The notes: generated by a model not told the origin, from the letters alone. 64,000 nt of DNA from Opitutales bacterium (GCA_017440935.1 JAFSAO010000020.1:13955-77954), one strand, 5' to 3'. Positions 36,597 through 38,711 are shown, counted from the stretch's first letter. Made by a program: numbers and translations.

Positions 36597-36738
36597 CAAA
36601 AAAAAAGCGTTGCGTGAAGATTCTTCTTTTCGGAAGCGCTCTGCAAGCACCAAAAGTCGCTTGCGAATAACTTTTTGGAGAAATGGAGCTTGCAAATCTC
36701 CGGGGAAAGAGTATCGTTCTCCCCATTGTTCTTTTTTA

Positions 36739-36813
36739 GGCGTGGTAGCCAAGTGGGAAGGCCGAGGTCTGCAAAATCTCTATGAGTCGGTTCGATTCCG
36801 ACCCACGCCTCCA
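36739..36813 (+). tRNA. tRNA-Cys (GCA)
   Basis: Acceptor stem GGCGTGG/CCACGCC, anticodon arm GAGGT-CTGCAAA-ATCTC, T-loop GGTTCGATTCC and encoded CCA. Upstream TTGCAA-N16-TATCGT is a promoter candidate. Confidence 0.97.
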
Positions 36814-36834
36814 ATTTCTTCCCAATCCAATAGA

Positions 36835-36909
36835 GCCCATAAGGTTCTCCTCCTTTCCCTTATGGGCAGCCCCGGCGAGTTTCCTCCTTTCTTCTCGCCG
36901 GGGCTTTTT
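36835..36909 (+). ncRNA. Candidate small RNA: two adjacent hairpins each displaying a CCUCCUUUC loop, the second also a terminator
   Basis: Hairpin 1: GCCCATAAGG-ttctcctcctttc-CCTTATGGGC. Hairpin 2: AGCCCCGGCGAG-tttcctcctttctt-CTCGCCGGGGCT followed by TTTT. The structure is seen directly; function is inferred. Confidence 0.55.
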
Positions 36910-36939
36910 GTTTACTTTTTCGCGGGAACGGCGGGAACG

Positions 36940-36968
36940 TTGACAGCGCGAAAAACCTTTTTTATAAT
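36940..36968 (+). promoter_or_regulatory. Perfect-consensus sigma70 promoter of the sulfatase gene
   Basis: TTGACA (36940-36945)-N17-TATAAT (36963-36968), ending 9 nt before the ATG. Confidence 0.8.
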
Positions 36969-36977
36969 CTCACGCGT

Positions 36978-38711
36978 ATGAAAAAGCTCCCCTGTTTCCC
37001 GCTTTGCGCGGCACTTGCCGTATCGGTTTTCGGCGTGAATGCCTTGGCTCAAACCGAAACCTCCGCCCGGAAGAAGCCGCTCAACGTCATTTATATTATG
37101 AGCGACGATCATGCCGTTCAGGCGATTTCCGCTTACGGGCATCCCATCGGGAAACTTGCGCCAACCCCGAATATTGACCGCATCGCCGAAAACGGAGCTC
37201 TGCTCATGCGCAATTATTGCGCAAACTCGATTTCCGGACCTTCCCGCGCGTGTGTGTTGACGGGGAAGCACTCCCACGCGAACGGTTACATGAGTAATGA
37301 ATGGGGCACGTTTGATAATCGCCAGAACAACGTTGCGAAAGTTTTCCGCGCGAACGGTTATCAGACGGGCATTATCGGAAAACTTCACTTGCCGAGCGAC
37401 CCGACCGGATTCGACTGGTGGCAGGTTTTCATCGGGCAGGGGCATTACATCAATCCGGATTTGCTTTGCGGCGACATCAACGGGCGTTTCAAAGGACCGC
37501 AAGGGCACATTATTGCCAACGGCTACTCCACGGAAATCGTTACCGACCGTGCTATCGACTGGCTCGAAAATCTGCGGGACAAATCCAAGCCGTTTTTCTT
37601 CATGGTGCACTACAAGGCTCCGCACCGGAATTGGATTCCCAAGGAAAAATATTACAACCTTTACGACAATGTGACGTTCCCGGAACCGTCGAATTTCTTC
37701 GACAATTACGAAGGGCGCTTTGCCGCAAAAGGGCAGGATATGTCGTTGCTGTGGACAATGCGCTGGGCGGCGGACTTAAAACTGTTCCCGTCGCGCGACC
37801 GTCATTCGTTCCCGCGCTGGATGCTTCCGCCGCGTATGTCCGACACGCAATACCAGAATTTTGTCAACGCCTACACGGCAAAAAATACGGCGTTTTTTGA
37901 TCAAAAAATTTGTACGGAAGCCGAATTTAACGAATGGCGCAAACATCGCCACGATGAAGCGTGGCTTGCCGCAAACAAGGAAAAACTCCAAAAATTCCAA
38001 AGCTGGGCGTATCAACGCTATATGCAGGACTACCTTGCGACGATTCGCGGCGTGGATGACGGCGTGGGCGAACTTCTCGACTACCTGAAAAAGAGCGGTT
38101 TGGATGAAAACACCGTCGTCTGCTACGCCTCCGATCAGGGATTTTATCTCGGCGAACACGGTTGGTTTGACAAACGTTTCATGTATGAAGAATCGTTCCG
38201 TATGCCGATGATGATGTCCGGTCCCGGAATTTTGAAAGGCAATAAAGTTAACCAGCTTACGCAAAATATCGACTTTGCGCCGACGTTCCTCGATATGTGC
38301 GGAATTGCCGTTCCCGCAGAAATGCAGGGAGAATCGTTTAAAGCACTTTTGGAGACGGACAAGCCGGTCGACACCTGGCGCGACTCGCTTTACTACTGCT
38401 ACTACGAGTATCCGGCGGAACATAGCGTGCGCCGCCACTGCGGTGTGAATTACCGGACACCCGACGGCTCGCAGGATTGGAAACTCATCCATTTTTACAA
38501 AGAAGATAAATGGGAACTCTTTGATTTGAATGCCGACCCGACCGAAGTGAATAATATTTACGGCAAGCCGGGCACGGAGGAAATCACAGCCAAGCTCAAA
38601 ACCAAGCTCAAGGAATTGCAGAAAAAGTACAACGTTCCCGAGGAATACATGAAGCCGGGAACGCCCTTGCGCAACGACGACAAGGTGCAACTGCAACCGC
38701 CGCTTGTCTGA
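36978..38711 (+). CDS. Exported Ser-type sulfatase (N-acetylglucosamine-6-sulfatase / mucin-desulfating-like)
   Basis: Signal peptide; IMSDDH, NSISGPSRA (S-x-P-x-R), LTGKHSH, GKLH, SDQGFYLGEHGWFDKRFMYEES and ELFDL..DP.E motifs. Confidence 0.88.
   Translation: MKKLPCFPLCAALAVSVFGVNALAQTETSARKKPLNVIYIMSDDHAVQAISAYGHPIGKLAPTPNIDRIAENGALLMRNYCANSISGPSRACVLTGKHSHANGYMSNEWGTFDNRQNNVAKVFRANGYQTGIIGKLHLPSDPTGFDWWQVFIGQGHYINPDLLCGDINGRFKGPQGHIIANGYSTEIVTDRAIDWLENLRDKSKPFFFMVHYKAPHRNWIPKEKYYNLYDNVTFPEPSNFFDNYEGRFAAKGQDMSLLWTMRWAADLKLFPSRDRHSFPRWMLPPRMSDTQYQNFVNAYTAKNTAFFDQKICTEAEFNEWRKHRHDEAWLAANKEKLQKFQSWAYQRYMQDYLATIRGVDDGVGELLDYLKKSGLDENTVVCYASDQGFYLGEHGWFDKRFMYEESFRMPMMMSGPGILKGNKVNQLTQNIDFAPTFLDMCGIAVPAEMQGESFKALLETDKPVDTWRDSLYYCYYEYPAEHSVRRHCGVNYRTPDGSQDWKLIHFYKEDKWELFDLNADPTEVNNIYGKPGTEEITAKLKTKLKELQKKYNVPEEYMKPGTPLRNDDKVQLQPPLV

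What the first reader, a model, noticed from the sequence alone, without database searches (positions are those of the whole stretch)
36835..36909. Two-hairpin RNA behind tRNA-Cys displaying anti-Shine-Dalgarno loops
Seen: two abutting perfect stems (10 bp and 12 bp) with unrelated stem sequences but nearly identical loops, UUCUCCUCCUUUC and UUUCCUCCUUUCUU. The second stem ends in a U-tract. The loop core CCUCCUUUC matches the bacterial 16S 3' tail (CACCUCCUUUCU) and is complementary to GAAAGGAGG. Terminator loops are normally 3-8 nt and not conserved, so duplicated 13-14 nt loops imply selection. Established: alphaproteobacterial cuckoo/CcsR and AbcR sRNAs present anti-SD motifs in repeated hairpin loops. 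Inference: a tRNA-cotranscribed sRNA released by tRNA 3' processing, acting as an SD-targeting regulator or a 16S-tail mimic. This is curious because the genes here show almost no SD sequences. Alternative: read on the minus strand, the loops are GGA-rich (CsrA/Rsm-type sites).
Basis: partly seen in the sequence, partly recalled or inferred. Interest (0 to 1): 0.75.

Follow-up and report, generated by a model that had tools for sequence, protein, structure and literature searches.

The report
tRNA-Cys trailer RNA with anti-SD loops
Behind the only cysteine tRNA gene of a gut bacterium (Candidatus Spyradosoma, Verrucomicrobiota) lies a conserved, folded ~96-nt RNA whose exposed loops copy the ribosome's anti-Shine-Dalgarno tail, although this bacterium hardly uses Shine-Dalgarno sites; it is probably a tRNA-derived regulatory RNA, but neither its expression nor its targets have been tested.

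Summary
tRNA-Cys (36739-36813, CCA encoded) is followed by a 21-nt C/U-rich leader, a 10-bp hairpin (loop UUCUCCUCCUUUC), a 12-bp hairpin (loop UUUCCUCCUUUCUU) and a U-tract. The element is real and under selection. It follows tRNA-Cys in 17 of 19 species of its genus (animal-gut Opitutales) and in an echidna-gut contig.

- **Conservation:** at least 11 different stem sequences keep pairing, and 11 of 22 pairs show compensatory changes. The leader core UCCCAA and the terminator-loop core UCCUCCUU never change.
- **16S match:** the second loop shares 10 nt (CCUCCUUUCU) with the genus's own 16S 3' tail.
- **Distribution:** it is single-copy and is the only all-pyrimidine long terminator loop in the genome. 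It was not found in 118 other genomes of the family, about 380 of the order, about 395 of the phylum, or 185,579 species genomes.
- **Rfam:** no family reaches threshold. The weak best hits are ar14/CcsR1 ("cuckoo"), LhrC and sX13.
- **Chaperones:** CsrA and Hfq are absent from all 19 genomes, which refutes the minus-strand CsrA reading. RNase E/G is present.
- **SD use:** the genome is SD-scarce.

Best reading: a tRNA-cotranscribed 3'-trailer sRNA with anti-SD seed loops, that is, a new variant of a known kind.

The parts
36690..36717 (+). Candidate promoter of the tRNA-Cys transcript: -35 TTGCAA (36690-36695), 16-nt spacer, -10 TATCGT (36712-36717). The predicted start is near 36724.
   Evidence: cTTGC and the -10 block are conserved in position in 13 species, while the surrounding sequence is not (alignment A9). 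It scores 8 of 12 against the consensus, so it falls below the strict scan criteria.
36739..36813 (+). tRNA-Cys (anticodon GCA), with discriminator U and an encoded CCA (36811-36813). It is the only tRNA-Cys gene in the genome.
   Evidence: ARAGORN; Rfam RF00005, 57.7 bits; 44 tRNAs listed in the genome, one of them Cys.
36814..36834 (+). Single-stranded C/U-rich leader AUUUCUUCCCAAUCCAAUAGA. The core UCCCAAUCCAA is at 36820-36830. The A/U-rich start right after CCA is a plausible RNase E/G cleavage region.
   Evidence: UCCCAAUCCAA is identical in 16 of 17 species; G014 has UCCUCCCAACAC. It is unpaired in every fold except G018, where the MFE fold pairs part of the leader weakly. RNase E/G is present in the genome.
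36835..36867 (+). Hairpin 1: 10-bp stem and 13-nt loop UUCUCCUCCUUUC (36845-36857).
   Evidence: Folding. The stem covaries, with 5 of 10 pairs changed on both sides. The CU-rich loop is present in 8 species and is replaced by a 4-7-nt loop in 9 species and in the echidna contig.
36868..36905 (+). Hairpin 2 (terminator stem): 12-bp stem and 14-nt loop UUUCCUCCUUUCUU (36880-36893). The loop contains CCUCCUUUCU, which is identical to 10 nt of the 16S 3' tail.
   Evidence: Folding. UCCUCCUU is present in the loop in 17 of 17 species plus 2 metagenome contigs, on at least 11 different stems. 6 of 12 pairs are changed on both sides. 16S tails are. It is the only all-pyrimidine loop among 363 long-loop terminator-like hairpins in the genome.
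36905..36913 (+). U-tract (UUUUU G UUU) ending the transcript. The predicted trailer RNA is 36814-36909, about 96 nt.
   Evidence: A run of 5-9 T follows hairpin 2 in all 17 species. Sequence downstream of it diverges at once.

Best explanation
The segment is the 3' external transcribed spacer (trailer) of the single tRNA-Cys gene. It has been shaped into a small structured RNA of about 96 nt.

Proposed mechanism:
1. It is transcribed from the tRNA promoter together with the tRNA and ends at its own hairpin-2/U-tract terminator.
2. It is set free when the tRNA 3' end (encoded CCA) is cut. The cut is most likely made by the RNase E/G-type enzyme, in the A/U-rich start of the leader.
3. The released RNA displays up to three unpaired C/U-rich motifs: the leader UCCC, loop 1 and loop 2. 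Two of them reproduce the 16S anti-Shine-Dalgarno sequence.
4. It acts in trans, without Hfq, by pairing with purine-rich GGAGG-type sequences of the few mRNAs in this SD-scarce bacterium that carry them. It thereby hides those sites from 30S subunits or changes mRNA stability.
5. Because it is made with a tRNA, its level should follow tRNA synthesis, that is, growth rate.

Shown: the anatomy, strand, structure, selection on the loops and leader, identity to the 16S tail, single-copy status, genus restriction, absence of Hfq and CsrA, and presence of RNase E/G.

Inferred: release, stability, trans action and targets.
For: - **Structure:** z = -6.55.
- **Covariation:** 88% of cells are paired, 11 of 22 pairs have changes on both sides, and the covariation score is 0.297 against 0.04-0.09 when partners are slid.
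- **Conservation:** all 15 distinct sequences fold into the same two-hairpin form, with different stems and the same loop core. Another new stem occurs in an echidna-gut contig. The leader and loop 2 are invariant while the flanks are randomised.
- **Strand:** the U-tract is only on the + strand. The G-U pairs at the base of hairpin 1 in G016 and G007 would be A-C mismatches on the minus strand.
- **Transcription unit:** there is a conserved promoter upstream of the tRNA and none in the 21-nt gap. The next gene has its own perfect promoter after the terminator.
- **16S identity:** 10-nt identity with the genus's 16S tail.
- **Uniqueness:** the other 43 tRNA trailers in the genome lack this design, and most carry a single ordinary terminator with an A-rich loop. 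No other all-pyrimidine terminator loop exists in the genome. The element is single-copy.
- **Shape:** the nearest Rfam shapes are anti-SD or C-rich-loop sRNAs: ar14 28 bits, CcsR1 24, LhrC 22, sX13 20.
- **Processing enzyme:** RNase E/G is present.
- **Precedents:** CcsR RNAs carry an anti-SD motif in each of two hairpin loops and are cut out of a UTR by RNase E (PMC8034643). The E. coli tRNA 3'ETS-leuZ is a functional trailer RNA (my own knowledge; reviewed in PMC8383071).
- **Candidate targets:** some genes do carry strong complementary sites, for example korA-like C16:62309 with GAAAAGGAGGAGGA, -18.5 kcal/mol.
Against: - No expression data could be obtained.
- Loop-complementary sites are not enriched upstream of start codons relative to coding controls: 42 vs 34 sites at -10 kcal/mol or better.
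- The best single candidate target (korA) exists in only 11 of 19 species, although the RNA is present in 17. No conserved target is therefore identified.
- If the ribosome here ignores SD sequences, as in Bacteroidia (PMC7797042), masking SD sites would have little effect on initiation.
- Hairpin 2 is needed as a terminator anyway.
- Two species of the genus do without the element.
Confidence: 0.5

Rival explanations
1. Protein or ribosome decoy. The loops mimic the 16S 3' tail and bind whatever binds that tail in this SD-scarce lineage, rather than pairing with mRNA. Candidates are platform proteins such as bS21/bS18/bS6 (which sequester the tail in Bacteroidia), protein S1 (which likes pyrimidine-rich single strands), or a 16S 3'-end processing nuclease. 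The RNA would buffer or report the free pool of that factor.
For: - The 10-nt identity with the 16S tail goes beyond the CCUCC core needed for SD pairing, since CCUCCUUUCU includes the UUUCU that follows the core.
- The genome hardly uses SD, so few mRNA targets exist.
- Verrucomicrobiales are reported to lack SD globally, with the question of tail sequestration left open (PMC10798248). Sequestration of the tail by proteins is established in Bacteroidia (PMC7797042).
- Hfq is absent.
Against: - In 8 of 17 species the loop keeps only UCCUCCUU(U) and then departs from the 16S tail, with UUUUCC or UUUU instead of UUUCU. The conserved core is therefore the SD-pairing part.
- No partner protein is linked to the locus.
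- Known r-protein mimics act in cis on their own mRNAs.
- Nothing here tests binding.
Confidence: 0.2
2. Only a cis element. It would be a double hairpin that terminates the tRNA-Cys transcript and protects or guides 3' processing of the precursor. The CU-rich loops and leader would be kept for that purpose, for example for nuclease entry or exclusion or for terminator efficiency, and there would be no trans function.
For: - Hairpin 2 plus the U-tract is a complete intrinsic terminator.
- The element is always at the same place, directly after the tRNA.
- G009 and G010 replace it with a plain terminator and keep the tRNA.
- Long terminator loops are not rare in this genome: 363 of 1,142 candidates have nominal loops of 10 nt or more.
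- Sporadic CU-rich-loop terminators occur in other Verrucomicrobiota, one of them after tRNA-Val.
Against: - Terminator function does not need a fixed 8-nt loop sequence identical to the anti-SD, nor an invariant 11-nt leader.
- None of the other 43 tRNA genes of the genome shares this design.
- Loop 2 is the only all-pyrimidine long loop in the genome.
- A second locus in G007 puts the same loop behind a different tRNA-like gene. This suggests the loop module itself is what is selected.
Confidence: 0.2
3. Minus-strand reading. The loops would be GGA-rich CsrA/Rsm binding sites of a sponge RNA, or Shine-Dalgarno sites of a small antisense ORF (ATG at 36840 on the minus strand).
For: On the minus strand the loops read GAAAGGAGGAGAA and AAGAAAGGAGGAAA. 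In this genome an ATG follows the first loop at SD distance and opens a short frame through the antisense tRNA.
Against: - CsrA (PF02599) is absent from all 19 genomes of the genus, while the controls were detected.
- There is no U-tract or terminator on the minus strand.
- The ATG is ACG in G016, G007, G012 and G005.
- The G-U pairs fit only the + strand.
Confidence: 0.03
4. DNA-level element. Two direct repeats of TCCTCCTTTC, 34 bp apart, would be binding sites for a regulator of the neighbouring genes, or a cruciform.
For: The repeat is exact, 9-10 bp long and spaced by about three helical turns.
Against: - Half of the species have only one copy.
- The stems covary to keep pairing, which a duplex protein site does not require.
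- The downstream gene and its promoter are not conserved with the element.
Confidence: 0.04

Closest known systems
Cuckoo / CcsR RNAs of Alphaproteobacteria (Rfam RF02791 CcsR1, RF02344 ar14; PMC4615179, PMC8034643)
   Same: Both have two adjacent hairpins with highly variable stems, and each loop shows an anti-SD-type CCUCC motif. Both are produced by processing of a longer transcript (CcsR from a 3' UTR by RNase E). These families are the best, though weak, Rfam matches.
   Different: - The loop motif is CCUCCUU(UC), not CCUCCUCCC.
- Scores are 24 and 28 bits against gathering scores of 65.3 and 58.8.
- The phylum is different: Verrucomicrobiota, while cuckoo RNAs were found only in Alphaproteobacteria among 2,680 genomes.
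- The element is single-copy rather than clustered.
- It is attached to a tRNA gene rather than to a DUF1127 gene.
- Only the terminator loop is universally kept.
- There is an extra invariant single-stranded UCCC leader.
3'ETS-leuZ of the E. coli glyW-cysT-leuZ operon (tRNA 3' external transcribed spacer acting as an RNA sponge)
   Same: Both are functional RNAs made of the tRNA trailer up to the operon terminator, released by tRNA 3' processing. Their synthesis is therefore coupled to tRNA synthesis.
   Different: 3'ETS-leuZ is Hfq-bound and sponges the sRNAs RyhB and RybB. Here Hfq is absent and the exposed motifs are anti-SD copies. There is no sequence similarity.
C-rich / UCCC-motif sRNAs of Firmicutes and others (RsaE/RoxS, LhrC RF00616, Xanthomonas sX13 RF02232, Helicobacter RepG)
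   Same: Both show several C/U-rich motifs in hairpin loops, a single-stranded stretch and the terminator loop, and these pair with G-rich ribosome-binding regions. Action is largely Hfq-independent. LhrC and sX13 appear among the weak Rfam hits.
   Different: Scores are far below threshold (22 vs 110 bits; 20 vs 50). Those RNAs have their own promoters, are not tRNA trailers, and occur in bacteria that use SD sequences widely.
Ordinary intrinsic terminators of tRNA genes
   Same: Hairpin 2 has a G+C-rich stem followed by a U-tract and ends the transcript.
   Different: The loop is 14 nt, is all pyrimidine and has a fixed sequence. A second hairpin and an invariant leader are present. The other 43 tRNA trailers of the same genome lack this design, and most carry a single plain terminator.

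Membership tests
Cuckoo / CcsR (RF02791, RF02344) | Score at or above the Rfam gathering threshold | tested here: not met
   CcsR1 scores 24.0 bits against 65.3, and ar14 scores 28.0 against 58.8. Nothing was found at gathering level.
Cuckoo / CcsR (RF02791, RF02344) | 2-4 adjacent hairpins, each loop carrying CCUCCUCCC (PMC4615179) | tested here: not met
   Two adjacent hairpins are present, but the loops read UCUCCUCCUUUC and CCUCCUUUCU. No species has CCUCCUCCC. 9 of 17 species lack any CCUCC in loop 1.
Cuckoo / CcsR (RF02791, RF02344) | Alphaproteobacterial distribution and, for the CIN1 subgroup, a neighbouring DUF1127 gene | tested here: not met
   The host is Candidatus Spyradosoma, Opitutales. 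The neighbours are tRNA-Cys and a sulfatase-like gene. DUF1127 elsewhere in the genome was not searched.
tRNA 3'ETS-derived regulatory RNA (3'ETS-leuZ type) | Lies between the last tRNA of a transcription unit and its terminator, with no promoter of its own | tested here: met
   There are 21 nt between CCA and hairpin 1. No promoter-like site lies there. A conserved promoter lies upstream of the tRNA. The U-tract follows hairpin 2.
tRNA 3'ETS-derived regulatory RNA (3'ETS-leuZ type) | Accumulates as a stable processed RNA | not testable with these tools
RNase E/G is encoded, so the route exists.
tRNA 3'ETS-derived regulatory RNA (3'ETS-leuZ type) | Hfq-dependent sponge of other sRNAs | tested here: not met
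   Hfq (PF17209) is absent from all 19 genomes of the genus, while the controls were detected.
CsrA/RsmA-titrating RNAs (CsrB, RsmY/Z) | A CsrA protein in the genome, and GGA motifs in loops on the transcribed strand | tested here: not met
   CsrA (PF02599) scores 0 of 19 genomes. GGA motifs appear only on the minus strand, which has no terminator.
Intrinsic (Rho-independent) terminator | G+C-rich stem directly followed by a U-tract | tested here: met
   Hairpin 2 has 12 bp, 9 of them G-C, followed by U5. This is conserved in 17 species.
Intrinsic (Rho-independent) terminator | Short loop (3-8 nt) with free sequence | tested here: not met
   The loop is 11-16 nt and always contains UCCUCCUU. 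The consensus scan with loops of 3-8 nt does not call it.
LhrC / RsaE-type UCCC sRNAs | Rfam threshold and Firmicute host | tested here: not met
   LhrC scores 22.2 bits against 110. The host is a Verrucomicrobiota member.

The most novel reading that the evidence does not exclude
In lineages that have given up Shine-Dalgarno-led initiation but keep the anti-SD tail, an abundant housekeeping RNA made with a tRNA displays exact copies of that tail. It would act as a class-wide filter. It would either mask every GGAGG-bearing message, which here tend to lie in low-GC and probably acquired DNA, or titrate the factor that holds the 16S tail. On this reading it is a dedicated 16S-tail mimic and not a gene-specific sRNA. 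Similar anti-SD-loop RNAs were noted by this scan in SD-poor CPR bacteria (e1-881163, e1-2051978; unchecked notes). Together they would point to a recurrent, convergent solution.
Probability: 0.15. Interest if true: 0.85.

Novelty: new variant of a known kind. Interest (0 to 1): 0.58.

Why it matters
- It would be an early, perhaps the first, comparative-genomics-supported regulatory RNA candidate in gut Opitutales, a group with almost no RNA biology. No Rfam family covers it.
- It joins two known principles in one molecule: functional tRNA trailers and anti-SD-loop sRNAs.
- It occurs in an organism that barely uses SD sites yet keeps a canonical anti-SD tail. It therefore offers a handle on an open question raised for Bacteroidia and Verrucomicrobiales (PMC7797042, PMC10798248): what the conserved anti-SD sequence, and the few remaining SD sites, are for in SD-independent bacteria.
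- The covariance model built here can annotate the element in new gut metagenomes.

Tried and rejected
1. **Pairing of the leader CUUCCCA with the tRNA D-loop UGGGAAG.** The complementarity exists in this genome. In the second species group the D-loop is GGUUAAGG while the leader stays CUCCCAA, so there is no covariation. Rejected.
2. **Minus-strand small ORF behind an SD.** The ATG is not conserved.
3. **CsrA sponge.** No CsrA in the genus.
4. **A second copy in the own genome at C2:34513-34615 (20.5 bits, with UCCCAAUCCAAAC and a UCCUCC loop).** It lies inside a 326-aa ORF on the other strand, so it is a chance match.
5. **korA-like gene as the conserved target.** Its strong SD is conserved where the gene exists, but the gene is in only 11 of 19 species.
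6. **Genome-wide enrichment of loop-complementary sites at start codons.** None was found.
7. **Complement of the leader.** No convincing site.
8. **rpsU and prfB as special SD-bearing genes, as in Bacteroidia.** rpsU has no SD and prfB has no frameshift site here.
9. **Homologues outside the genus.** None in the family, order or phylum samples or in the 185,579-species collection. 15 of the 30 pattern hits were chance matches without a tRNA.
11. **Generic scan for hairpins with CCTCC in the loop.** Too permissive to be informative. It was replaced by the terminator-loop scan.

Full report
**1. Observation**

- tRNA-Cys(GCA) occupies 36739-36813 on the + strand. Its acceptor stem ends at 36809, followed by discriminator U and an encoded CCA (36811-36813).
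- A 21-nt pyrimidine-rich leader follows (AUUUCUUCCCAAUCCAAUAGA, 36814-36834).
- Hairpin 1 spans 36835-36867: 10 perfect pairs and a 13-nt loop UUCUCCUCCUUUC.
- Hairpin 2 abuts it at 36868-36905: 12 perfect pairs and a 14-nt loop UUUCCUCCUUUCUU.
- A U run follows (36905-36909, then G UUU).

The + strand folds exactly this way. MFE is -42.7 kcal/mol, z = -6.55, and no shuffle out of 200 folds as well. CCTCCTTTC occurs nowhere else in the window. It occurs only three more times in the 1.84-Mb genome, never in such a hairpin.

**2. Organism**

The window is C18:13955-77954 of a 22-contig, 98%-complete genome. Record titles of the matching loci in the public species collection name Candidatus Spyradosoma (some records "Spyradenecus", "Opitutales bacterium" or "Verrucomicrobia bacterium"). 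The sources are chicken, sheep rectum, buffalo colon and water-deer rectum. Several MAG titles carry clearly wrong taxon labels.

**3. Conservation**

A search of 40 relatives with the tRNA plus trailer found the whole element in 9 species of the genus. In 8 further species only the tRNA plus the first part of the trailer matched. Reading those 8 showed the same plan with quite different stems.

In all, 17 of 19 species of the genus carry it directly after tRNA-Cys. G009 and G010, which have the most divergent tRNA-Cys sequence, have a plain terminator instead.

Every one of the 15 distinct sequences folds on its own into leader, hairpin 1, hairpin 2 and U-tract.
- Hairpin 2 uses at least 11 different stem sequences. 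Examples are AGCCCCGGCGAG, GCCUCCGACGAG, GUCUCCGGCGAG, CCCGCAGAGAG, CCCUCAGUGAG, CCCGCAAUGAGG and CCUGCAACGGG. An echidna-gut contig adds CCGUCUGCGAG.
- The loop of hairpin 2 always contains UCCUCCUU.
- The leader core UCCCAAUCCAA is identical in 16 species. G014 has UCCUCCCAACAC, which is itself a CCUCC motif.
- Sequence beyond the U-tract is unrelated between the species groups.

On the model-based alignment of the matches, 88% of cells pair. 11 of 22 pairs show changes on both sides. The covariation score is 0.297, against 0.04-0.09 when the partners are slid by 1-3 columns. That alignment is fitted to the structure, so the independent single-sequence folds are the firmer evidence.

Hairpin 1 is less constrained. 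Its 13-nt CU loop is present in 8 species, and in the other 9 it is a short 4-6-nt loop. The universal parts are the leader and the terminator loop.

**4. Distribution**

A covariance model (R1) finds one copy in the own genome. Coverage elsewhere:

| Sample | Result |
|---|---|
| Genus, 19 genomes | 17 strong matches (60-100 bits) |
| Other family genomes, 118 | nothing above 28 bits |
| Order, about 380 further genomes | nothing above 28 bits |
| Phylum, about 395 further genomes | five weak hits (27-32 bits) |
| 185,579 species genomes, exact-pattern scan | 30 stretches: 15 in this genus; 15 without a tRNA, all below 20 bits, hence chance |
| Metagenome scan | two more true copies |

The five weak phylum hits are terminator hairpins with 12-16-nt CU-rich loops. 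One follows tRNA-Val and one has the loop UUGCCUCCUUUUU. Their number is close to what the rough E-values allow by chance, so I treat them as possible analogues only.

Two weak hits inside the genus are more telling.
- In G007, a second locus places two hairpins behind an odd 85-nt tRNA-like gene. The last hairpin has the loop UUUUCCUCCUUUCUC and U5.
- In G009, the tRNA-Thr/tRNA-Gln pair is followed by two hairpins with a UUCUCCUUU loop.

**5. Within-genome controls**

All 44 tRNA genes of the genome were listed with their trailers. The other 43 lack this design. Most have a single ordinary terminator, often of a recurring GCCCGCAA...UUGCGGGC type with an A-rich loop.

Among 1,142 terminator-like hairpins, 363 have nominal loops of 10 nt or more. 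Hairpin 2 is the only one of these whose loop is entirely pyrimidine.

**6. Strand and transcription unit**

- The U-tract exists only on the + strand.
- On the minus strand the hairpins are followed by the antisense tRNA, with no terminator.
- G-U pairs at the base of hairpin 1 in G016 and G007 would be A-C mismatches on the minus strand.
- A promoter-like pair, cTTGCa-16-TATCGT (36690-36717), is conserved in position in 13 species.
- The 21-nt gap between the tRNA and hairpin 1 holds no promoter.
- The downstream sulfatase-like gene has its own perfect TTGACA-17-TATAAT promoter (36940-36968), which lies after the terminator.

The trailer is therefore made with the tRNA. Because CCA is encoded, the 3' end must be freed by an endonuclease cut followed by trimming. 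An RNase E/G family protein is encoded at C12:30881-31690. The trailer begins with the A/U-rich AUUUCUU.

**7. The anti-SD relation**

The own MAG lacks the 16S gene. In three species of the genus the 16S 3' end reads GGAUCACCUCCUUUCUA. Loop 2 (UUUCCUCCUUUCUU) thus repeats CCUCCUUUCU, which is 10 nt. Across the genus the shared core is UCCUCCUU.

The genome is SD-scarce.
- With a crude gene call (1,190 long ORFs, first ATG), 10.6% have GGAG/GAGG/AGGA at -20..-4, against 7.3% in a control window.
- rpsU, rpsA and prfB have A-rich, SD-free leaders, and prfB lacks the frameshift site.

This fits the report that Verrucomicrobiales, like Bacteroidia, globally lack SD sequences while keeping the anti-SD (PMC10798248, PMC10783764, PMC7797042).

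Sites complementary to the loops are not enriched before start codons: 42 against 34 in coding controls at -10 kcal/mol or better.

A minority of genes do have strong sites.
- A korA/korB-like 2-oxoacid:ferredoxin oxidoreductase operon (GAAAAGGAGGAGGA, -18.5 kcal/mol).
- An sdhA/frdA-like gene.
- A choloylglycine hydrolase.
- rplW.
- Several secreted proteins.

The korA site is conserved where the gene exists, but the gene is in only 11 of 19 species. SD-led genes have lower G+C and cluster on low-GC contigs. The means are 0.513 against 0.534 (p = 0.03), and for the 15 with the strongest motifs 0.49 (p = 0.014). This is a weak hint that they are acquired genes.

**8. Partners**

CsrA (PF02599) and Hfq (PF17209) are absent from all 19 genomes, while both searches found their controls. 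This removes the CsrA-sponge reading. Any trans action must be Hfq-independent, as it is for several C-rich-loop sRNAs.

**9. Comparison with known RNAs**

No Rfam 15 family reaches its gathering score. The permissive scan of 451 nt lists ar14 (28 bits, threshold 58.8), CcsR1 (24, 65.3), LhrC (22, 110) and sX13 (20, 50). All of these are RNAs that show C-rich or anti-SD motifs in hairpin loops.

The cuckoo family is defined by 2-4 adjacent hairpins with variable stems, each loop carrying CCUCCUCCC. It was found only in Alphaproteobacteria among 2,680 genomes (PMC4615179). CcsR RNAs are cut from a 3' UTR by RNase E (PMC8034643).

The present RNA works like these in anatomy but fails the membership tests on motif, score, taxon and neighbourhood. 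Its position as a tRNA trailer resembles the E. coli 3'ETS-leuZ, but that RNA is an Hfq-dependent sponge. I therefore class it as a new variant of a known kind.

**10. Mechanism and odds**

- About 0.9: a selected, structured RNA element of the tRNA-Cys transcript on the + strand.
- About 0.5: a released trailer sRNA whose loops and leader pair with GGAGG-type sites.
- About 0.2: a 16S-tail mimic that binds a protein.
- About 0.2: a purely cis terminator and processing element.
- Under 0.05 each: the minus-strand reading and the DNA-level reading.

**11. Earlier notes of this scan**

The notes describe anti-SD-loop RNAs in SD-poor CPR lineages (e1-881163, e1-2051978). They also describe tRNA-linked C-rich-loop RNAs (e1-3332315, e1-3434443). 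They are unchecked AI notes and were not used as evidence. They suggest the pattern may recur, which raises the value of testing one case.

Noticed in passing
whole genome; e.g. window 36921-36939 (GCGGGAACGGCGGGAACG): The octamer CGGGAACG (both strands counted) occurs 5,274 times in the 1.84-Mb genome against about 56 expected, roughly once per 350 bp. It often forms the arms of terminator-like hairpins (CGTTCCCGC...GCGGGAACG). This looks like a DNA-uptake-sequence-like or other genome-wide signal. It is only rarely followed directly by a -35 box (39 of 5,445).
   Followed up: partly
window 36940-36980: A perfect sigma-70 promoter, TTGACA-17-TATAAT, ends 9 nt before the ATG (36978) of the 577-aa sulfatase-like gene. 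The mRNA would be leaderless or nearly so, which fits SD-independent initiation. GGGAACGTTGACAG is shared by several relatives.
   Followed up: no
own genome, trailers of many tRNA genes (e.g. C18:1534-1580, C12:70730-70780, C4:39004-39045): A recurring terminator family, AAAGCCCGCAA-CC..GAUAAAUAAAGG..-UUGCGGGCUUUUU with a conserved A-rich loop, follows at least 10 tRNA genes. About 20 such hairpins exist in the genome. They are paralogous terminators or a small repeat family.
   Followed up: partly
L099 (G007:C3:208600-211000), minus strand 1060-1284: An atypical 85-nt tRNA-like gene (ARAGORN: tRNA-Gly(UCC), with an insert in the anticodon region and an encoded CCA) is followed by two hairpins. 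The terminator loop is UUUUCCUCCUUUCUC, the same anti-SD loop as behind tRNA-Cys. The region has no long ORFs.
   Followed up: partly
L045 (G009:C8:16900-17300): In G009, which lacks the tRNA-Cys element, the tRNA-Thr(UGU)/tRNA-Gln(CUG) pair is followed by two hairpins. The second has a 15-18-nt loop with UUUUUUCUCCUUUGG, then U6.
   Followed up: no
L117-L121 (other Verrucomicrobiota genomes G516, G793, G812, G731, G535): These loci hold sporadic terminator hairpins with 12-16-nt CU-rich loops: UUUCCCUCCCUUUUUU, UUUCAUCCUUUC (after tRNA-Val), UUUACUCCUCUUUU, UUGCCUCCUUUUU and UUUUUUCCUUUCU. They score 27-32 bits with model R1. They could be analogues or chance.
   Followed up: partly
contig ends of the own genome (C2, C8, C13, C16, C18, C21 and others): The same sequence of about 100 nt, containing the hairpin ACGAAGACCTCCCGGTCTTCGT, sits at many contig ends. 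Other end sequences are shared pairwise: C1/C5, C3/C9, C3/C6, C4/C20, C7/C19, C12/C20. These are repeats (IS or similar) that broke the assembly.
   Followed up: no
own genome C16:61249-62309 (minus strand) and relatives L088-L098: A korA/korB-like 2-oxoacid:ferredoxin oxidoreductase operon is present in only 11 of 19 species. It has one of the strongest SD sites of the genome, which lies inside the end of the upstream gene (…EEKEEE*).
   Followed up: partly
public records found: Several MAGs of this genus carry wrong taxon labels in their titles: uncultured Enterobacteriaceae, Sphaerochaetaceae, Bacteroidaceae. Their loci are near-identical to the Spyradosoma element.
   Followed up: no
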